A stretch of 64,000 bases of DNA from Heterodontus francisci (Eukaryota), in contig NC_090404.1 of assembly GCF_036365525.1 (NCBI RefSeq), positions 44,463,544 through 44,527,543 of the forward strand. The letters are read 5' to 3'. The translations under genes and the position numbers were made by a program. The notes beneath the pieces were generated by a model, which did not search any database, was not told where the DNA came from, and saw only the letters and a program-made list of their open reading frames with translations. Shown piece after piece: positions 4,690-62,005 of the stretch (the first letter of the stretch is position 1; each line of letters begins with the position of its first letter).

Positions 4690-5235
4690 GTGCTATTTCA
4701 TGGTGTAAATGCAGTTCTATTATGTTCACTGTGGGTGAATTATCACACTGTTATCAGTGTGTAAATGTAGTTCGATTGTATTATTCACACGGTTACTATG
4801 GGTCGATTACCGCACTGCTATCACGGTGCAGATGTAATTCTGGTGCGTTATTGACACTGTTACCGTGGGTGAAATACCACACTGTTATCCCAGTGTAAAC
4901 GTAGTGAAATTGTGTAATTGACATCGTTTCTGTGGGTACATTATCACACTGTTATCCCAGTGTAAATGTCGTTATATTATGTAATTGACATTGTTTCTGT
5001 GGATGAATTATCACACTGTTATCACGGTGTAAATGTAGTTATACTCTTATTATTTTCATAATTACTATCGATGAATTATCACACTGTTATCCCGGTGTAA
5101 ATATAGTTCTACTCCATTATTTTCATCATTACTGTCGGTGAATTATCACACTGTTTTCTCAGTGTAAATGCAGTTCGATTGTGTTATTCACACTTTTGCT
5201 GCAGGACAACTGTCACGCTGTTATCACGGTGCACG
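4690..5235 (+). repeat. ~67-bp intronic tandem repeat, ~8 units
   Basis: 'gaattatcacactgttatc'-type core at about 4737, 4805, 4871, 4938, 5005, 5073, 5140, 5207. Confidence 0.85.
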
Positions 5236-5608
5236 TGGAGGTATATTGCTTTAATGGCAGTAACAGCAGATGTGTGATTTTCATAAATTATTACTGACTA
5301 AATTTATTCAACTTGTAAATAATGCTTGACTTCATTTAATTATTGAATTTATTGAAGAAACATTATTGTTGTGAACAGAAATATAAGCCATGTAACAAGT
5401 GGCCGTTCTATGAACGTATCCGCACTTACCCCAAACCTCACAGCAGAAGTGTGAATAACACAATAGAACAGCATTTACACTGAGAAAACAGTGTGATAAT
5501 TCACCGACAGTAATGATGAAAATAATGGAGGAGAACCATATTTACACCGGGATAACAGTGTGATAATTCATCGATAGTAATTATGAAAATAATAAGAGTA
5601 TAACTACA
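5034..5608. repeat. 168-bp inverted repeat (arms 5034-5201 and 5441-5608, 239-nt spacer)
   Basis: Arms are ungapped reverse complements with 5 mismatches counted by eye. Confidence 0.92.
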
Positions 5609-6116
5609 ATAACACTAATCATTTTACAGTAATTCATCGGATGAGAGCCTGTTAGTTTCTTTGCGGATATAATCCTTTTTAAATGCAATTTCTGTTTCCT
5701 CCTTTCCTCTAAGTTTCCACTTTTATTGTTCGTTATTGCATTTTAAACCCTGTTAAATATATTCTCGACTATGTTACTGGCGTTATTTTTCTTGTCTGTT
5801 TGATGGCCCCGTGTTGGTTTCAATTGATTAACGATGCCTTTTTGTTCTCCATTATGTTTGGTTGTATTATTTTACATTATGATGATATTGACCTGTCTGA
5901 TTTTTAATCCAGATGATTCATTGAAGCACAAAAACAAGTACCCAGAGGTTAAGCGATAAGTTTCTATTCAGGATCATGTGTCTAAGCTGTGAATCTCACA
6001 GAGAATTCTGTAAATCCGATGGTTTTGTTGGAGTTGGACCAGTGCATTTCCTGTTCTCTCTCGCTCACACACACATACTCTCCGACTTTCTCTCAGTCTC
6101 TCTGTCTCTATTACAG

Positions 6117-7024: not shown

Positions 7025-8246
7025 TGAAAATAGTACAATGCTACATGATTCGAACGTTATATTCTATCCATTGCCGTTCTTGTCCATGTCACACACGGCC
7101 TCCCCTTCCAGAAAAATAGCCACTCGCTTTGAGATCCATTTCCATTGTGTGAATTTAAGAATGCATAAGCAACGCTGCAAAGCCACATAATTCAGTGCTG
7201 TAACATGTTCTTATTTGGTTTCCAGTTCTCTTCCCCGTGTCGACTCTAACTTCATACATTTGCATCAGCCCCAAGGGCCTAGAAGTTTCGCTACATTCCT
7301 ATGGGAGACAGAGATTCTGACCTCTGATCTATTAATAGTTATCAAGTTTCACTGGGAAGTGAAGGGAAATCAATATGCCTGCTGGGAATGATTTGTGCCT
7401 TAAGGGTAGAATAGACTCTGAAACTGAATCATGTAATGCCCCATGCATTGCTCTCCAATCCAACAGCACCCCTCACAGACGCAGTCTTGTACCCATAAAC
7501 ATCAGAACAGAGGAAATGCTGGAGGAAAGAGACAGTTCACCTTCTACACTTTTCATTAACCAATTAGGTCAGCATCCCTGTTTCATCAAACAGAATAAAA
7601 TCATTAGAACAAAAGTCCTCCCATTTTAAAAGGGATGCAAACAATAAATATCAGAAAAAGAAATTCATCAAATTAAATGAGGATATTATCTTCACTATTG
7701 ACTATGCACTCCAGTCACTTTGCCTTCTACCATAGTAGCCCCAATTCCCATGATACAATGTTAATAGATTTTTCGACTAATCACAGCAATCGCAATAAAC
7801 TAGCCTACAACAGAGCGAGATATGAAAAGAGTTAGACTCCAGTGGTGAAGAGCTTTAGGAACCATATTTCCAAATTCATCTGTTCCTCTCAAGCAATTCT
7901 ACATTTACCGCATGTCATGTCTCAAATTTCTCACATACCGTCTCCCAAAATGCCATGCTGTGAATGAATTCTGCCTAATTTGAATGGTAAGAATCAATAT
8001 TAACTGCTTTCACCTTAACTGTAGGGAATGTGCTCCATAGATCGACTGCTCAGTAAAATATTGTTTCAGTAGATTGGCTTTGAATTTACCTCATTCACTG
8101 TAGCTGTTACCTCTGGAAAACTTGTCGGGCTTACATCATCGAGTTCATTTTTGAATCTGGAAAATAGAAAGCGTACCACCCCGGCACCTTCCATTTTCCA
8201 ATAAGGATTTGCTCAATATACATAATCGTTACTCACATTCCAATCT

Positions 8247-50690: not shown

Positions 50691-53439
50691 CTTCAAGGAT
50701 CTCTCCTATCCACACACCAGCAACCGGTCATGTTTTTGAATGCACCACAACTACATCACTCACCCAGCAGCCCTTGCTGGAACTCAGGACATACGCCTAA
50801 CATTCAGACATTCACCTCACCCTCATACACCTACCAATACTTCCAGCTGCACACCTACCTCTCCCTGCTTCCACTTATCTCCAACCATTCTGCTATGGCA
50901 GGAACTTCACCCATATGCAGAATCACTGACATTCTGCTCCCCGCCCTGCAGAACAAGGGGCTGACAATAGAAAAGAGCAGTGCAGAACAGCCGGGGAACA
51001 AGGACACCTAGAGTACTACAGGGAGATGAATCTCTAAAATCGGAGTGTCTGCATCTCCAGAGTCCAAGCCATCCAGCGTCACTTGGAACATTGAGAATGA
51101 CGGTATGGTCACGCCTTATGCCCCTCCTCATCACCCAGCTCACCATCATTCTTCGATTTGACATGATATGCAAGCTGCAGATGTTATTACCATTGGTATT
51201 TTGCTTGCCAACCCGCTCCCCTACCTCCACCTCAACGTTCCCCTTTTGATTTCCTGCTTTCAGACACCTACGAATTAACGTCTGCCCGGGCACAGCGTTC
51301 CAAGGAGGAAGGGAAGGAGGAAAAAAGGGAGAGAGAGAGATAAAACAACACAACACTAATAAAATTATGAAGCGGTCCTGCCGTTTGATTCTAACACTGG
51401 TAACCAGCAGCTCAGATATTGGGATCAGCGTATTGTGAGCCACTGGTCATGAGTGGGCAGATGTCTGGCCATCGGTAGTGTACGGTTCATTTGAAAGCTT
51501 CCCGGCGGGCGAGATCACAGTCGAGTCAACTGCAAAGGAGCTTGATTGGCTGGCATACAGGAGAGAGCTTATTAGAGTGCATAAGGAGATGCTGGGTACA
51601 TTGGCTGGCTTGCGAGGCACCTTTCTGTTACTGTCAAGAAGCCTGGCTCCAAACTGATAGAGGCCATGGCGCAGAGCTTTTAATGGGACAGAAACAATAA
51701 ACACACAAAATATTTTTAAAATGCCGAATTGATTGAGAACATTAAATTCACTCTCCACTGTGCACTCCAGCCTAGTTTGGCTTTGACTATCCTGGTAGGC
51801 ACGATCGAATAATAATGCGTTATTGAGGATTCACAGCATAAATTTCTATCAATTATTTTACAAAATACATAGACAGGAGGCGAGGAAAATCCCAGTGGTG
51901 GAGAGTTTTAGAATGAGGGGCATTAAATTATTTGCAGTTGTGCTACAGAGGTCCAGCATTGCTTTGCCTGGTGTGCTGCTTCCTGTACGGTCCCCCTGGC
52001 ATTCCATTAGTAAAAGAGCATACATATGACTCTATAAGGCTGTCAATAGACGATGTCCCATCATGCAGCAGACCCTGTGGTACTGTCATTACTGTCCGCA
52101 TTCCTGTTGCAGCCTTTGTGCTGTCATGCTATCAAAACAGCTTCTCTATCTTTGAGGATGCAGCAGAAATCTCTGGCAAGTGTAGAAAATCATCACAAAA
52201 TTTCCAAAAATAATCCAGTGTGCATCCAAACAATTGGTAACCGAAGAAGTTCTCAAAAAAGTACTTTACCTGCAATTTGGGATCCTTGCTAGATTAGGAA
52301 CTATAGTGCAGTGTTCATTTGCATCTCTGCACCTGTTATTGTAGGGTCAGAGACTTATACATTACCTGGACCTGCCTGGTCCAGATGTGGAATACTGGGG
52401 CACATCAGCAGATTGGGTTGTGTGAGGTCAATAAAGCCTTGACTCACCAGTTTCCAGCACATGCAGGGTCGCCTCCTCAAGCCACCTTTTACTAATGGAA
52501 TGCCAGGTGGGCTGCACAGGAAGTAGCCGGTGGTGTATGGTGCTCCAGCAAAGCGACGCTAGACCTCTGCATCACTGCTGAAATTCATTTTGTTCTCCTG
52601 ATTCCTAAAGGTCTTCACCACTGGGAATATCTTCACCTCATGCCTGGGCCTATTGCAGACTAATTGATAGAGATCGATCGTTATGATTGGTCAACATCAC
52701 CATTATCATTGAATTATGCAACTGTCAGGACAGTAAACAGTGAACTGAACAGGAGTGCACAGTCGCTAATAAGATAATGTTCCCATTCAATTTGATATAT
52801 TTAAATAGTTTTTTTGTGTGTTTATTGTTTCTATCCCTTTAAAATTGGGCACACTTGTTAGCTGGATTTTATTTTGTTTTGTGGCACTGGCGATGTTGTC
52901 CGAATTGGCCAATTAGAGGAGGAGAAGGTAAACTACCTGGTGCTTTGTCTTTTTTTTTTCCATCCAGCAGTTACTCTGTTCCTCTGTTTATGGGATCAGG
53001 ATTGTGGCTGGGGAGGGATGGGCAGGCGGTGCCCAGTGTGTGGTGAACAACGCGTGGGAACAGTATTCTTATTTCAGAGCGTATCCTACTCTCAAGGTCC
53101 TAACCATCCTCAGGGGGCATATTGTGGTTCCTTCTGTAAACAGTTAAACTTGGCATCCAATTACAAATCAGGGGTCGGCATTTCGGTCTCCCACGTGAAT
53201 GTGGAGATCCTCCGGGGCCCTTGGAGCTAGTGGATCAGGCCTGAGTCAGCACGGGGAAGAGAACTGGAAACTAACTGAGAATATACCACAATACTGAAAT
53301 GTGCAGTGTTGCAGCGTTTCTTATACATCATTAAAGTCACACAGTAGATAAGTGTATCAGGAAGTGGAGGCCAGGTGATATAAGCAAGAAGAGCAATGAA
53401 TAGAATACAATGTGCAACTCATGCTGAATTTTATTATTT

Positions 53440-54350
53440 TCATTGTTTACATAATTTAGCAATTAGACGAATTGGATATTTCACTCCTTTCTTTAACTCG
53501 ACTCTGAATTTACTTTGAGTCCCTGCATAAATGAATGGGTTGATGCAAGAACTCAGAAACTGAAGCATATATCCGCTTTCCTCCAGAATATAATTTGATT
53601 CATTGAAATTGGAACCGGAAAAATAAGTAAGGCTCGCAATCTGGACATAGAGGAAAGATACAAATCGTAACAAATATAACAGGATGAAAGTACCCGAGAC
53701 ACAGAAGAGTAAAACTATGGAGTTTCTCCGTTTCTCCATCTCTGGGTCACTCTGTTTCCTTCCGTTGCTGTGGGCTCGGAGTCTCCTGCGAGTTCTACTG
53801 GCTGCCACAATGTCCCTGACAGTCAGAGCATTGAGCAGTAAAATCAGAATGAATGGGAGACAAGGGTTTAAAATCTGATGAATCCATTCATATGCAATCC
53901 AGGCAGTTGATGTATAAAATACTGATTTCATGCTGCAGAGCCAGGGTATATTGTTAATTATATACAAAGGTTCACATATAAAAAACACAAACGTATTATA
54001 CAAACAGCTCAGTGTGCAGACCGTTGCTATAACCCGTGCCGCTGTTTTATTGGAGCAATATTTTATTTTCAGCTTTTTGCAACAGATAGCTATAAATCGA
54101 TCAAATGTGAAAACGACTGTTAACCAGACAGAAATATCTATGGCTGCAAAGTTCAGGGCAACTCGGAGACCACATACTGGTGTGATGTTCAGGAAACTGA
54201 ATGGGAAATAATAAATAGCAATCCTGTTTAATATCACAGCAGTGAAAATTACCAAGAGATCCATCACTGCCATAGACACCAGGTAGTAAGTGATACATCT
54301 GGAAAGACCACATCTTCCTTGGGGCAGGATCACAATAACTGCCAAGTTAG
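53440..54350 (-). CDS. GPR139-like GPCR gene C, coding exon 2; full protein 326 aa
   Basis: ttacag|CTAACTTG acceptor; MAVMD, TFDRF, NPFIY; open frame. Confidence 0.92.
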
Positions 54351-54403
54351 CTGTAAAAAAAAGACAGACAGAAGAGACTGAGAAAGAAAAGGGAAAGAGG
54401 GAG

Positions 54404-54876
54404 ACCTGTGTAAATAATTAACAATATACCTGGTTCTGCCACAGAAAATCAATATTTTATGTATCAGTTGCATGGGACGCAGATTAATGGACTCATTGGA
54501 TTTTAACCCCTTGTCTCCCTTTCATTCCGATTTTACTGCTCGATGCTCTGACCTTCAGACACATTCTAGCGGCCAGTATAGCTCACAGGAGACTCCGAGC
54601 CCAGAGATGGAGAAGCGGAGAAACTCCATCGTTTTACTCTTCTGTGCCTCGGGTACTTGCATCCTGTTATATTTGTTACAATTTAGATCTTTCGGAATTG
54701 CGAACTTTACTTATTTCTCCAGTTCCAACTTCAATGAATCAAATTTTATTCTGGAGGAAAGCGCATATATGCTTTAGCTTTTTGAGTTCTTGACTCCACC
54801 CGTTCATTTATGTCGGGAGCCAAAGTAAATTCAGAGTCGAGTTAAAGAAAGGAGTGAAATATCCAATGAGTCTAAT
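54404..54876 (+). pseudogene. Inverted decayed copy of the 3' half of GPCR exon 2, inside the gene C intron
   Basis: Reads PEMEKRRNSIVLLFC, NFNESNFILEES, KFRVELKKGVKYP; deletions and stops; partner region 53462-53971. Confidence 0.9.
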
Positions 54877-55106
54877 GTGTGAGAGACAGAGCGAGTACAG
54901 GACAGTTGCTGGTCCACTTCCAACAAAATGATCCGTTTTACAGAATTCTGTGCGAAATGTACAACTGTGAAGCGTGATCTTTGGTTAGAAGCGATCCATT
55001 CTGCTCTGTTTCTGTTTCTAAAGTAATCCTCTGAATGAAAAATAAATCAGGCCAATGACATCAAAATGTAAAATAAAATTAATAAACACAATTGACATCA
55101 GCGAAG

Positions 55107-56538
55107 CATCAGAAACCCATTAAAATCAACGTGAGAGCATCAAAAAGAAAAACAAAGTATATAACAGTAACTTATTATGGAAGATATTTAAAGGGGTGAA
55201 TAATGCAACAAAATACATTCGGTGTGGAAACAAGCAAGTTTCTTCTTTTCTTCTTTCTTTTGGGCCTCCTTATCTCGAGAGACAATGGATACGCGCCTGG
55301 AGGTGGTCAGTGGTTTGTGAAGCAGCGCCTGGAGTGGCTATAAAGGCCAATTCTGGAGTGACAGGCTCTTCCACAGGTGCTGCAGAGAAATTTGTTTGTT
55401 GGGGCTGTTGCACAGTTGGCTCTCCCCTTGCGCCTCTGTCTTTTTTCCTGCCAACTACTAAGTCTCTTCGACTCGCCACAATTTAGCCCTGTCTTTATGG
55501 CTGCCCGCCAGCTCTGGCGAATGCTGGCAACTGACTCCCACGACTTGTGATCAATGTCACACGATTTCATGTCGCGTTTGCAGACGTCTTTATAACGGAG
55601 ACATGGACGGCCGGTGGGTCTGATACCAGTGGCGAGCTCGCTGTACAATGTGTCTTTGGGGATCCTGCCATCTTCCATGCGGCTCACATGGCCAAGCCAT
55701 CTCAAGCGCCGCTGACTCAGTAGTGTGTATAAGCTGGGGATGTTGGCCGCTTCAAGGACTTCTGTGTTGGAGATATAGTCCTGCCACCTGATGCCAAGTA
55801 TTCTCCGAAGGCAGCGAAGATGGAATGAATTGAGACGTCGCTCTTGGCTGGCATACGTTGTCCAGGCCTCGCTGCCGTAGAGCAAGGTACTGAGGACACA
55901 GGCCTGATACACTCGGACTTTTGTGTTCCGTGTCAGTGCGCCATTTTCCCACACTCTCTTGGCCAGTCTGAACATAGCAGTGGAAGCCTTACCCATGCGC
56001 TTGTTGATTTCTGCATCTAGAGACAGGTTACTGGTGATAGTTGAGCCTAGGTAGGTGAACTCTTGAACCACTTCCAGAGCGTGGTCGCCAATATTGATGG
56101 ATGGAGCATTTCTGACATCCTGCCCCATGATGTTCGTTTTCTTGAGGCTGATGGTTAGGCCAAATTCATTGCAGGCAGACGCAAACCTGTCGATGAGACT
56201 CTGCAGGCATTCTTCAGTGTGAGATGTTAAAGCAGCATCGTCAGCAAAGAGGAGTTCTCTGATGAGGACTTTCCGTACTTTGGACTTCGCTCTTAGACGG
56301 GCAAGGTTGAACAACCTGCCCCCTGATCTTGTGTGGAGGAAAATTCCTTCTTCAGAGGATTTGAACGCATGTGAAAGCAGCAGGGAGAAGAAAATCCCAA
56401 AATCCCATCAGAAACCCATTAAAATCAACGTGAGAGCATCAAAAAGAAAAACAAAGTATATAACAGTAACTTATTATGGAAGATATTTAAAGGGGTGAAT
56501 AATGCAACAAAATACATTCGGTGTGGAAACAAGCAAGT
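55107..56538. repeat. 133-bp identical direct repeats (55107-55239 and 56406-56538) flanking the RTE
   Basis: catcagaaacccatt...gaaacaagcaagt identical by eye. Confidence 0.93.
55240..56405 (-). mobile_element. Young RTE-clade (BovB-like) LINE, 5'-truncated
   Basis: Open 335-aa ORF: LLFADDAAL, FTYLGS, LLYGSEAW, RLRWLGH, C2H2 finger CSTC..H...C; AAG-rich tail. Confidence 0.93.
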
Positions 56539-56599: not shown

Positions 56600-57760
56600 C
56601 AAGATCAGGTGAGGTGAGCGTGACTGCCGTTGACATCAAGGCAATATTTGATCGACTATGGCATCAAGGAGCCTTGGCAAAACTGTAGTCAATGGGATTT
56701 AAGGAAAGCTCTCACTGGTTGAAATCATGCCTAGTACAAAGGAAGATGGGTGTGGTTGTTGGAGGTCAGTCATCTCAGGTCCAGGACGTCACTGCAGGAG
56801 TTTATGAGGGTAGTGTCCTAGGCTCAACCATCATCAGCTGCTTCATCAATGACCTCCCTTCAATCATAAGGTCAGAAGTGGGGATGTTCGCTGATGATTG
56901 CACAATGTTCAGCATCATTCGTGACTCCTCAGATACTGAGGCAGTCCGAGTCGAAATAAAGAAAGACCTGCCGAATATGCAGGCTTGGGCTGATAAGTGA
57001 CAAGTAACATTTGTGCCACACAAGTGCCAGGCAATGACTATCTCCAACAAGAGAAAATCTATCCATTTCCCCTTGACATTTAATGACATTACCATCGCTG
57101 AATCCCCCACTATCAACATCCTAGGGAATACCATTGACCAGAAACTGAACTAGAGCGGCAACAAGAGCAGGTTAGAGGCTAGGAATCCTGCGGCAAGTAA
57201 CTCACCTCCTGACTCCCCAAAGCCTGTCCACAATCTGCAAGGCACAAGTCAGGAGTGTGATGGAATACTCTCCACTTGCCTGGATGGGTGCAGCTCCAAC
57301 AAAACTCAAGAAGCTCGACACCATCCAGGACAGAGCAGCCTGCTTGATTGGCACTCCATCCACAACTATTCACTCCCTCCATCACAGACGCAGTGGCAGC
57401 AGTGTATACCATCTACAAGATGCACTGCAGCAACGCTCCAAGGCTCCTTAAATAGCACCTTACAAACCCACGACCTCTAACACTTAGAAAGACAAGGGCA
57501 GCAAATGCATGGGAACACCATCACCTGCAAGATCCCCTCCAAGCCATGACTTGGAACCATATCGCCGTTCCTTCACTGTCGCTGTGTCAAAATGCTGGAA
57601 CTCCCTTCCTAACAGCATTATGGGTGTACCTGCCCCACATGGACTGCAGCGGTTCAAGAAGGCAGCTCACCACCTGCTTCTCGAGGGCAATTAGGGATGG
57701 GTAATAAATGCTGGCCTTGCGAGCAAAGCCCACATCCCATGAATGAATTTAACTAAAAAC
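56600..57760 (+). mobile_element. RTE-X-like LINE 3' fragment in gene C intron
   Basis: FADD, MEYSPLAW, tail 'cccatgaatgaat'. Confidence 0.85.
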
Positions 57761-57769
57761 ACAAAAGAA

Positions 57770-58560
57770 CCACATTTATATCGTGATAACAGTGTGACAA
57801 TTCACCCACAGTAACAGTGTCAATAGCACAATAAGGCAACATTTACAGCGTGATAACAGTATGTTAATTCACCCACAGTAACAGTGTCAATAACACATTA
57901 GAGACATTTACACCATAACAGTGTGATAGTTCACGCACAGTAAATGTCAATAACACATAATAAGTGCATTCACACAGTGAGAACAGTGTGATAATTCGCT
58001 CACAGTAATAGCGTGAATAACCATAGAACCATAACAAAATGACGCCCAGAAAGAGGCAATTCAGCCAATCGTATGTGTGCCGCCCAAAAAGTACTAGCAG
58101 CCCAATATATTCCCACCTTCCTGCACCTGGTCTGTAGCCTTGCAGGTTGCAGCACTTCAGGTGCATATCCAGGTGCGTTTTAAATAAACTGAGGATTTCT
58201 GCCTCCAGCACCGTCTGAGTGAAAAGGTTTTTCGTCATGTCCCCTCTAATCATTCCACCAATCATCTTAAATTTGTGCCCCATAGCAATTGACCTCAATA
58301 GAACTACATTTACAGTGTGATAATTCACTCAGGGTAAGTGTCAATCACAAAATAGAACTAAATTTACACCGCTAACAGTGTGCAGTAATTCACCAACAGT
58401 ACCAGTGTCAATAACACAATAAAACGACTTTGAATTGTGGTGAGTGCGGCAATTGACCTCCCGCAATATTGTCAGTAACACAATAGAACGACATTTACAC
58501 TGTGATAATTACCCCAAAGTAACAGTCTCAACACCACATGCAACTACATTTAAATTGTGA
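57770..58560 (-). repeat. ~67-bp intronic repeat of gene C, interrupted by a CR1 tail (~58020-58295)
   Basis: Reverse complement of the 4690-5235 units. Confidence 0.8.
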
Positions 58561-59040: not shown

Positions 59041-59110
59041 CTGGAACCCCGATAACTGCAATGATTGGATAGTAAATGACAAACACCAGACCTGTTGGTA
59101 ATACGTGCAT
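59041..59110 (-). CDS. GPR139-like GPCR gene C, coding exon 1 (MHVLPTGLVFVIYYPIIAVIGVP)
   Basis: ATG at 59110; 70 nt; CCAG|gtaaag donor; paralog of 4166-4235. Confidence 0.9.
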
Positions 59111-59559: not shown

Positions 59560-60415
59560 TACGTCTGCACACTGACTTTAACACAACTATCTCTGCATTC
59601 AGTGTGGACAGGTCCAGTTACGTCCCGTTGCATTCATTGTGCACAGGTCCAGTACCTTGCAATTATTTTCATTGCGGACTTGTCCAGGTCAGTGCCGTTA
59701 TATTCAATGTGGGCAGGTCCAGTTCATCTTACATAGGTCCAGTTAAGCACAGTTACATTCGAGCTGAACATGCCCAATGCTGCTCCCTTGCATTCAGTGT
59801 GACCAAGTCCTGTTCAGCATGTTTAAATTCAGTGTGAACTGGTCCAGTTCAGCATATTACATTCTGTGTGTACAGGTTCAGGTGCTGTATTCACCATGGA
59901 CTGGTTCATTGCAGCAAGATTACATGCAGTCGGGGCAGTTCCACTTCAGCAATAAAATTCAGTGTGGACAGATCCAATTCAGCACAGTCATATCCAATAC
60001 AGACACATTCAGATCCAGGTCAGGGAAAAGTCCAGTTTAGCACCATCAATTTCAGTGTGAATAGATCTGTTTCAGCAAAATTAAAGCCAGTCTGTACATG
60101 TCCAGGTCAGTGCTGTTATAGTTCTGGTGGACAGGACCTGTGCAGTAAATTTACATTCAATGTTGACAGGTCCAATTCAGTTCAGTGGGGTAATATTCAG
60201 TGTGCACTGGTTACATTGATTATTGACAAATCCGGCTCAAAGTTGTTGCATTTAGCGTAAAAACGTTCAATTCAATATTTCGCTTGCACAGGTCAAACTC
60301 TACATGCTTATGTTCTGAGTTAACAAGATCAGTACAGCACGGTTCCATTCACTGTATGCAGGTCCAGCTCTACATGGCTAGTTTCAAAGTGAACTGGTCC
60401 ACGGCAACTAGGTTA
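59560..60415 (-). repeat. Degenerate 35-bp tandem array upstream of gene C
   Basis: Units 'cagtgtggacaggtccagttcagcacagttacatt' on the + strand. Confidence 0.85.
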
Positions 60416-60419
60416 TGAC

Positions 60420-62005
60420 ATTTTTGTTGCATTCGTTCATGGGATGTGGGCGCCGCTGGCTAGAATATCATGTATTGCTCATACCTAATTGCCCTTGAGA
60501 AGGTGGTGGTGAGCTGCCTTCTTGAACGCTGCAGTCCATGTGGGGTAGCTACACCCACAGTGCTGATAGGAAGGGTTTTGATCCAGCGCCAATGAAGAGA
60601 CAGCGATATAGTTCCAAGTCAGGATGGTTTATGGCTTGGAGGGGATCTTGCAGGCGTTGGTGTTCCCATGTGTCTGCTGCCCTTGTCCTTCTAGGTGGTA
60701 AAAGTCATGGGTTTGGAAGGTGCTATCTAAGGAGTCTTGGTGTGTTGCTGCAGTGCATTATGCAGATGTACACACTGGTGCATCGGTGTTGGAGGGAGTG
60801 AATGCTTGTAGATGGGGTGCCAATCAAGCGGGCTGCTTTGTCCTGGATGGTGTCGAGCTTCTTGAGTGTTGTTGGAGCCACACTCATCCAGGCAAGTGGC
60901 GAGTATTTCAGCACACTCCTGTCTTGTGCTTTGTAGATGGTGGACAGGCTTTGGGGAGGCAGGAGATGCGTTACTCGCCGCAGGATTCCTAGCCTCTGAC
61001 CTGCCCTTGTAGCCACGGTATTTATATCGCTGCTCCAGTTCAGTTTCTGGTCAATGGTAACCCCCAGGATGTTGATAGCGCGGGATTCACTGATCGTACT
61101 GGCATTGAATGTCAAGGGGAAATGGTTCGAATTTCTCTTGTTTGAGATAGTCATTGCCTGGCACTTGTGTGGCACGAATGTTACCTGCCACATATCAGTC
61201 CAAGCCTGGATATTGTGCAGGTCTTGCTCCATTTCTACACGGACTGCTTCAGTATCTGAGAAGTTGGAAATGCTGCTGAACATTGTGCTATTATCAGCCA
61301 ACATCCCTATTTCTGACATTTTGATTGAAGGAAGGTCATTGATGAAGAAGCTGAAGATGGTTGGGCCTAGGATACTACACTGAGGAACTCCTGTGAATTC
61401 CTGGAGCTTAGATGATTGACCTCCAATAACTACAATCATCTTCGTTTGTGCGAGGTACGACTCCAACCAGTGGAGAGTTATCCTCCTGGTGCCCATTGAC
61501 TCCAGTTTTGATAGGGCTCCTTGATTCCATATTCAGTCGAATGCTGCGTTGATGTCAAGGAAAGTCACTCTGATCTCACCTCTTGAGCTCAGATGTTTTC
61601 TCCATGCTTTAACCAAGGCTGTAATAAGGTCAGGAGCTGAGTGGCCCTGGCAGAACCCAAATTAAGCATCACTGAATAAGTTATTGCGAAGTAATTGCCT
61701 CTGATAACAATGTCAACGACACCTTCCATCACTTTACTGATGATTGAGAGTAGATTGATGGGACGGTAATTGTCTGAGTTGGATTTCTCCTGCCTTTTGT
61801 GTACAGGGCACACCTAGGCAATTTTCTACATTGCTGGGCAGATGCCAGTATTGTAGCTGCACTGGAACAGCTTGGCTAGGGGAATGGCATGTTCTGGAGC
61901 ACAAGTCTTCAGGACGATTGCTGGAATGTGTTCAGGGTCCATAGCTTTTGTAGTATCCAGTGCCTTTAGTCGCTACTTAATTGCACATGGAGTGAATCGA
62001 ATTCG
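60420..62005 (-). mobile_element. RTE-X-like LINE 3' half
   Basis: ORFs 60723..61496 and 61589..61813 with RT motifs. Confidence 0.85.

What the first reader, a model, noticed from the sequence alone, without database searches (positions are those of the whole stretch)
53462..54876. Inverted self-copy of exon 2 that would fold back over gene C's splice acceptor
A 473-bp antisense copy (54404-54876) of exon 2's second half sits 53 nt upstream of the acceptor and shares C-specific residues (RRNS, YLL, EES, RVELKK). In pre-mRNA it can pair with 53971-53462, looping out ~430 nt that include the pyrimidine tract and 3' splice site. It also displaces the ancestral upstream intron sequence. Possible effects: exon skipping, ADAR recoding of TM5-TM7, or siRNAs against paralogs. 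The copy is decayed, so it may be neutral.
Basis: partly seen in the sequence, partly recalled or inferred. Interest (0 to 1): 0.72.

Follow-up and report, generated by a model that had tools for sequence, protein, structure and literature searches.

The report
Decaying inverted exon copy in intron
A shark receptor gene carries a real backwards copy of part of its own last exon just inside the preceding intron, predicted to fold the RNA into a long hairpin, but the copy has decayed as fast as neighbouring non-coding DNA while the gene stayed intact, so it is most likely a harmless relic of a DNA copying slip.

Summary
54404-54876 is an inverted copy of 53462-53971 (86% of ungapped columns), 53 nt upstream of the exon 2 acceptor of an intact two-exon, 326-aa shark GPCR of the 'probable GPR139' expansion. 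A long duplex is predicted (-649 kcal/mol). The same insert sits in two sister paralogs from a triplicated block. The three inserts form one clade, sister to their three exons, so this was one self-copy event, likely a replication template switch. The regulatory reading is not supported. The insert varies at 49 of 468 sites against 446 of 4,206 in flanks. It has taken deletions and, in one copy, a LINE. Pair-keeping and pair-breaking transitions are 14:13. It pairs as well with other paralogs' exons as with its own. Exon 2 stayed under purifying selection after the insertion (dN/dS 0.17), so spliced protein was likely still made. The splice signals lie in the loop, and exon 2 is the last coding exon, so skipping is unlikely. 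Incidental ADAR editing remains possible; no RNA data could test it. Verdict: ordinary, probably neutral inverted duplication.

The parts
59041..59110 (-). Coding exon 1 of gene C (ATG at 59110, 23 codons plus 1 nt, GT donor)
   Evidence: Sequence. Exon 1 plus exon 2 translates to 326 aa, identical to database protein P0121
54351..59040 (-). Single intron of the coding region (4.7 kb), holding the insert, an RTE-like and a CR1-like LINE fragment and satellite-like repeats
   Evidence: LINE classes are named from recalled protein features, not from a library search
54404..54876 (+). Inverted 473-bp copy of the 3' part of exon 2 (antisense within the gene C pre-mRNA), with 1-, 28- and 9-nt deletions, a 1-nt insertion and stops
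53462..53971 (-). Template arm inside exon 2 (by my reading ECL2 through TM5-TM7 to the proximal C-tail)
   Evidence: helix assignment read from the sequence, not computed
54351..54403 (-). 53-nt pyrimidine tract with the family CTCAG motif (a candidate branch A at about -29) and the acceptor AG; lies in the 432-nt loop
   Evidence: the branch point is inferred, not mapped
54877..54883 (-). Upstream half of the family's CTCACACACATAC intron motif, pushed 473 nt away from the acceptor by the insert
   Evidence: Acceptor contexts of 60 family loci; junctions
53440..54350 (-). Coding exon 2 of gene C, open to the TGA; class A GPCR (7tm_1)
   Evidence: (PF00001, E 2e-18)

Best explanation
The insert is a single inverted self-duplication of about 510 bp of exon 2, likely made by a replication template switch in the ancestor of gene C and two sister paralogs, and it is most likely a neutral relic. 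Shown: one origin before the block triplicated, decay at the rate of flanking DNA, no compensatory pairing, and continued purifying selection on exon 2. Inferred: the polymerase jumped from the intron to the opposite strand about 940 nt ahead, copied back about 510 nt and returned, losing about 4 nt, at 2-nt and 1-nt microhomologies. Inferred: the intron is still spliced because the pyrimidine tract and AG stay in a 432-nt loop and are transcribed 379 nt before the pairing arm begins. Any ADAR editing of the unspliced RNA would be a by-product.
For: Tree of 31 segments: 3 inserts monophyletic (bootstrap 100) and sister to their 3 exons (100). Variable sites: 49 of 468 in the insert, 446 of 4,206 in flanks, p=1.0, rate ratio 95% interval 0.74-1.28; no conserved sub-block (longest invariant run 34, shuffle mean 39.5). 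Pairwise: 0.085 vs 0.078 (C-P2), 0.040 vs 0.050 (C-P3), 0.086 vs 0.087 (P2-P3). Insert-lineage transitions that keep a G-U pair vs break the pair: 14 vs 13. The insert pairs with its own exon at -649, and with P2, L005 and L006 exons at -668, -656 and -650. A LINE splits the insert in P3. Exon 2 of C vs P2: 11 of 702 nonsynonymous and 18 of 204 synonymous sites differ, dN/dS 0.17, p=4e-6. Acceptor region mean unpaired probability is 0.61 with the stem base closed, vs 0.28-0.56 in 5 paralogs without the insert. Junctions against the empty site.
Against: Synonymous divergence of C vs P2 is lower in the paired half of exon 2 (5 of 112 sites) than in the looped half (13 of 89), p=0.023. Gene conversion between C and P2 may explain it (shared derived sites C+P2 vs C+P3: 3 vs 1 in the arm, 5 vs 15 in the 3' flank), but this is not proven. 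One site is shared only by the P3 exon and the P3 insert (column 403). With three copies the test excludes only constraint stronger than about 25%, and a short functional editing element could hide in it. A loosely specified duplex could be kept without base-level constraint. One of the three carriers (P3) is a pseudogene. Purifying selection shows that some protein was made, not that splicing is efficient.
Confidence: 0.78

Rival explanations
1. Mildly harmful or dampening: the hairpin lowers splicing efficiency or causes nuclear retention of edited pre-mRNA, so the three carriers are weakly expressed, and this is tolerated in a very large receptor family.
For: Very stable predicted duplex. 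The family's upstream CTCACACA motif, a second branch-point candidate, is pushed 473 nt away. 1 of 3 carriers is a pseudogene. Splicing of a last intron may be slow enough for the stem to form (general knowledge).
Against: 2 of 3 carriers keep open frames with dN/dS 0.17, similar to C vs the insert-free paralog L034 (0.22). The insert does not decay faster than flanks. Pseudogenes also occur among insert-free paralogs (L035).
Confidence: 0.11
2. The insert is a selected editing-complementary sequence: ADAR edits adenosines in the paired exon half before splicing and diversifies the receptor's ECL2-TM7 region.
For: A 470-bp, 86%-matched exon-intron duplex resembles known ADAR substrates. 114 A:U and 10 A:C positions lie in the arm, 87 nonsynonymous if edited. 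Coding-sequence editing clusters driven by a reversed paralog are described in human (PMC8897444, passages). Lower dS in the arm.
Against: Functional editing-complementary sequences are recognised by conservation (PMC5705066, passages), and this one shows none. No wobble bias, no locus-specific fit, deletions of 28, 9 and 5 nt and a LINE insertion. Exon-derived changes show no clear A-to-G excess.
Confidence: 0.07
3. The unspliced hairpin is diced into siRNAs that dampen paralogous receptors, like Drosophila hairpin RNAs.
For: Drosophila hpRNAs arise as inverted fragments of their target's exon next to the parent gene (PMC10317233, passages). Exact 21-mers are shared with several paralog exons (0-63 windows per paralog, 27 with its own exon).
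Against: Only two perfect runs of 19 bp or more remain in C (20 and 47 bp). The duplex exists only in intron-containing RNA. Decay is neutral. Long-hairpin siRNA production is limited in vertebrate somatic cells (recalled; unknown for sharks).
Confidence: 0.04

Closest known systems
Replication template-switch inverted repeats / MMBIR templated insertions (four-point model, PMC7954356; PMC8421209)
   Same: A nearby segment copied in reverse-complement into a site with a few bases lost and 1-2 nt microhomology, leaving one inverted repeat.
   Different: Much longer (about 510 bp) than the short-range events that PMC7954356 treats; the template is a coding exon; inherited by three paralogs. The mechanism is inferred from junctions only.
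Paralog-derived or intronic editing-complementary sequences (CLDN9/CLDN6, TOR1B; PMC8897444)
   Same: An antisense copy of coding sequence on the same transcript would form a long duplex with the exon.
   Different: Here the complement is a decayed fragment in the upstream intron, not a downstream reversed gene under a long 3' UTR; editing is not shown; no conservation.
Inverted-Alu RNA duplexes that promote exon skipping (PMC13019944; TBXT example in PMC11802352)
   Same: Long, about 85% matched inverted repeat in a pre-mRNA near splice sites.
   Different: Those duplexes are intron-intron and loop out a whole internal exon. This one is intron-exon, loops only the acceptor, and involves the last coding exon.
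Drosophila hairpin RNAs such as hp58 (PMC10317233)
   Same: Inverted fragment of a parent gene's exon, near the parent, with many paralogs as possible targets.
   Different: No separate hairpin transcript, no small-RNA evidence, vertebrate host, one arm is the coding exon itself.
Elasmobranch 'probable G-protein coupled receptor 139' expansion (database label)
   Same: Gene C is a typical two-exon member; 1,036 relatives at E<=1e-20.
   Different: 3 of 81 distinct loci examined carry this intronic exon copy, all from one event.

Membership tests
Template-switch inverted duplication | Inserted segment is the reverse complement of nearby sequence of the same locus | tested here: met
   inserts are sister to their own exon clade, bootstrap 100
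Template-switch inverted duplication | Flanks rejoin with little loss, microhomology at junctions, no target-site duplication or poly(A) | tested here: met
   about 4 nt lost; AT and T microhomology inferred against the family motif; short enough to be partly chance
Template-switch inverted duplication | Formed during replication or repair rather than by another route | not testable with these tools
   Ancient event; other repair routes give similar junctions
Functional editing-complementary sequence (ECS) | Forms a stable duplex with the coding region on the same pre-mRNA | tested here: met
   Predicted only:
Functional editing-complementary sequence (ECS) | Sequence or pairing conserved above neutral background | tested here: not met
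   (three paralogs of one genome; no other species available)
Functional editing-complementary sequence (ECS) | A-to-I editing seen in transcripts | not testable with these tools
   No RNA holder listed; contigs cannot show it
Duplex-driven exon skipping (inverted-Alu type) | Arms flank an internal exon with a downstream acceptor available | tested here: not met
   One arm is inside exon 2, which carries the stop codon; untranslated downstream exons were not looked for
Hairpin RNA / endo-siRNA locus | Dicer-dependent 21-23-nt RNAs from the arms | not testable with these tools
   No small-RNA run listed
Class A GPCR, elasmobranch GPR139-like expansion (host gene) | 7tm_1 domain, open frame, close relatives under that label | tested here: met
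   orthology to human GPR139 not tested, and no PDB chain matched at E<=1e-10

The most novel reading that the evidence does not exclude
A receptor gene built its own editing guide in one step. The inverted exon copy makes the unspliced RNA an ADAR substrate, so gene C and its intact sister produce a combinatorial set of recoded receptors (up to 87 nonsynonymous adenosines across ECL2-TM7), and the duplex is kept loosely enough to escape the conservation test.
Probability: 0.07. Interest if true: 0.65.

Novelty: new member of a known kind. Interest (0 to 1): 0.2.

Why it matters
As a neutral relic it matters little. It is a clean example that a 470-bp exon-intron inverted repeat enclosing a 3' splice site can persist through about 9% neutral divergence while the gene stays under purifying selection. 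The three carriers and their insert-free relatives form a small natural experiment on how splicing tolerates long duplexes. It would matter more if RNA showed heavy recoding, since that would be a one-step origin of editing in a large, little-studied shark receptor family.

Tried and rejected
RNA evidence: no RNA holder listed. Three runs guessed to be RNA, laid at 88% likeness, gave only sparse exon 2 contigs carrying paralog-type differences, nothing on the insert, and no exon 1-exon 2 joint among the 15 joints shown (799 not shown). This is uninformative either way. DNA contigs tile both junctions with 0-2 differences, but none has 31 letters on both sides, and they may be the assembly's own sample; not used as independent proof. 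The database model P0121 uses this acceptor, but sister models have unrelated first exons (P0001-P0003), so I do not count it as RNA support. Dating: the only rate I read (7e-10 per generation, another shark, PMC10587355 passages) gives over 1e8 generations, which is implausible, so no age is given. Other inverted repeats in the family as independent cases: L017/L018 arms are a dispersed repeat (SINE-like by recall); the L096 fragment is about 74% to many paralogs, so it is an old opposite-strand remnant, not a self-copy. A cryptic AG at the insert's end would add 55 nt in C and P3 and 54 nt in P2, so its frame is not conserved. Rejected: assembly artefact; copy from gene A or B (81.6% and 78.2% vs 86.4%). 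Orthologs in other species: no relatives held. One search timed out and was redone; the accessibility control returned 5 of 6 paralogs tried. No earlier scan notes were found. Four paper searches for the receptor family and a term look-up in PMC8455134 showed no paper on it among the rows listed. None of the 10 searches listed a report of this insert; most subscription papers are not searched.

Full report
Host gene. Gene C lies on the minus strand: exon 1 at 59110-59041, a 4.7-kb intron, and exon 2 at 54350-53440. The spliced frame is open and gives 326 aa, identical to database protein P0121, labelled 'probable G-protein coupled receptor 139 [Heterodontus francisci]'. Exon 2 matches Pfam 7tm_1 and has 1,036 relatives at E<=1e-20; the named ones among the 120 listed are from sharks. 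It is one member of a very large tandem receptor family.

Observation. 54404-54876 is the reverse complement of 53462-53971: 79.8% over 511 columns, 86.4% without gaps. The loop is 432 nt and includes 53 nt of intron with the pyrimidine tract and AG. Folding gives one long stem. The duplex energy is -649 kcal/mol against -154 to -167 for 5 shuffles.

Origin. A search of the own genome found the same insert in two more genes: P2 (L002/L031, intact exon 2) and P3 (L003/L032, frameshifted, with stops and a LINE inside the insert). Genes A and B also each have two close copies in the same 0.3-Mb region, so the A-B-C block was triplicated. In a tree of 28 exon segments and 3 inserts, the inserts form one clade (bootstrap 100), sister to the C/P2/P3 exons (100). 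The copy was therefore made once, from the ancestral gene's own exon, before the triplication. Against an insert-free paralog the flanks rejoin within 8 nt. Against the family motif about 4 nt were lost, with inferred microhomologies of 2 and 1 nt. This fits the four-point template-switch model, in which reverse-oriented copying leaves a single inverted repeat (PMC7954356, passages). The mechanism is inferred, not shown. Such inserts are rare: 3 of 81 distinct family loci examined, each with at least 1,090 nt upstream of the acceptor, and all 3 from this one event. Those 81 are the top relatives from three searches that each scored 40 of 955, 2,963 and 2,475 candidates, not the whole family.

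Is the duplex under selection? No sign of it. Across C, P2 and P3, 49 of 468 insert columns vary against 446 of 4,206 flank columns (p=1.0; ratio interval 0.74-1.28), and the longest invariant run (34) is below the shuffle mean (39.5). Pairwise divergences match the flanks. Polarised insert transitions keep a G-U pair in 14 cases and break the pair in 13; present mismatches split 19:18, 20:13 and 22:16 in the three loci. Read in the exon's frame, insert-side changes are 27 nonsynonymous or stop to 5 synonymous, as for free DNA. The C insert pairs no better with its own exon (-649) than with P2, L005 or L006 exons (-668, -656, -650). The inserts carry deletions of 1, 5, 9 and 28 nt.

Results against this reading. 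Synonymous divergence between C and P2 is lower in the paired half of exon 2 (5 of 112) than in the looped half (13 of 89), p=0.023. The arm groups C with P2 (3 sites vs 1) while the 3' flank groups C with P3 (15 vs 5), which points to gene conversion between C and P2, but the numbers are small. One derived base is shared only by P3's exon and P3's insert. Three copies cannot exclude weak constraint or a short functional element.

Does the gene still work? C and P2 both inherited the insert, and their exon 2 differs at 11 of 702 nonsynonymous and 18 of 204 synonymous sites (dN/dS 0.17, p=4e-6; dS 0.094, close to the flank divergence). Protein was therefore likely made after the insert arrived. 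Both keep exon 1 and its GT donor. The CTCAG motif and the pyrimidine tract stay next to the AG, while the family's CTCACACA motif at about -50 was split and its upstream half displaced (60 acceptor contexts). With the stem base closed, the last 35 intron bases have a mean unpaired probability of 0.61, against 0.28-0.56 in 5 insert-free paralogs; in the nascent RNA before the arm is made it is 0.45. The acceptor is transcribed 379 nt before pairing can start. A review notes that loops can present signals single-stranded and that transcription kinetics govern long-range pairing (PMC11802352, passages). Efficient splicing is inferred, not measured.

Comparison with known systems. It works like a template-switch inverted duplication and meets the testable features. 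It resembles an editing-complementary sequence: human coding clusters are edited through reversed paralogs or intronic complements (PMC8897444, passages). But functional ones are found by conservation (PMC5705066, passages), which is absent here. Inverted-Alu skipping (PMC13019944, abstract and outline) needs an internal exon between the arms. Drosophila hairpin RNAs can arise from an inverted exon fragment (PMC10317233, passages), but there is no small-RNA evidence here. PMC8421209 was seen only in a search listing. No supplements were read.

Verdict. Real, correctly described, single-origin inverted self-copy; most likely a neutral relic (0.78). Incidental editing is plausible if the gene is expressed where ADAR acts, but it is untested. 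Interest 0.2; a new member of a known kind.

Noticed in passing
window 51678-52016 and 52486-52844: A second, older inverted repeat (70%) in the 3' flank of gene C, shared by P2, P3, L034, L097 and partly L033. Own-locus arm identity (70.4%) is no higher than cross-locus (67.8-73%), so it also looks like a neutral relic.
   Followed up: partly
window 55240-56405, flanked by 55107-55239 and 56406-56538: RTE-like LINE fragment with a 366-codon open frame in gene C's intron, same sense as the gene, flanked by a perfect 133-nt duplication, unusually long for a target-site duplication. Absent from P2 and P3, so recent.
   Followed up: partly
window 56607-57758 and 60421-61581: Two CR1-like LINE fragments in inverted orientation (81%, 1.18 kb) flank exon 1; the pair is also present in P2. 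They would pair only if transcription starts upstream of 61581.
   Followed up: no
window 5027-5201 and 5441-5615: A 175-bp, 96% inverted repeat of satellite-like sequence about 500 nt upstream of gene A's acceptor, not seen in A's two close copies L037 and L038: probably another recent local inversion.
   Followed up: partly
G000:C34:44.21-44.52 Mb: The A-B-C receptor block is triplicated (A copies 95% and 93%, B copies 98% and 94%).
   Followed up: yes
L096:6393-7223: Decayed opposite-strand remnant of a paralog (intron end plus about 140 nt of exon 2) about 900 nt past the stop of an intact family gene; a possible paralog-type editing complement if the 3' UTR is long.
   Followed up: partly
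window 57755-58538 and 59591-60409: Degenerate tandem repeats of about 62-67 nt in the intron and 35 nt upstream of exon 1; the intronic type recurs near gene A (4698-5615).
   Followed up: no
L035:6005-6431 and 7556-7981: A 427-bp, 98% inverted repeat near a family pseudogene.
   Followed up: no
whole family: The shark 'probable GPR139' expansion is very large (1,036 relatives found), yet four paper searches listed no study of it; the family itself may deserve more attention than this insert.
   Followed up: partly
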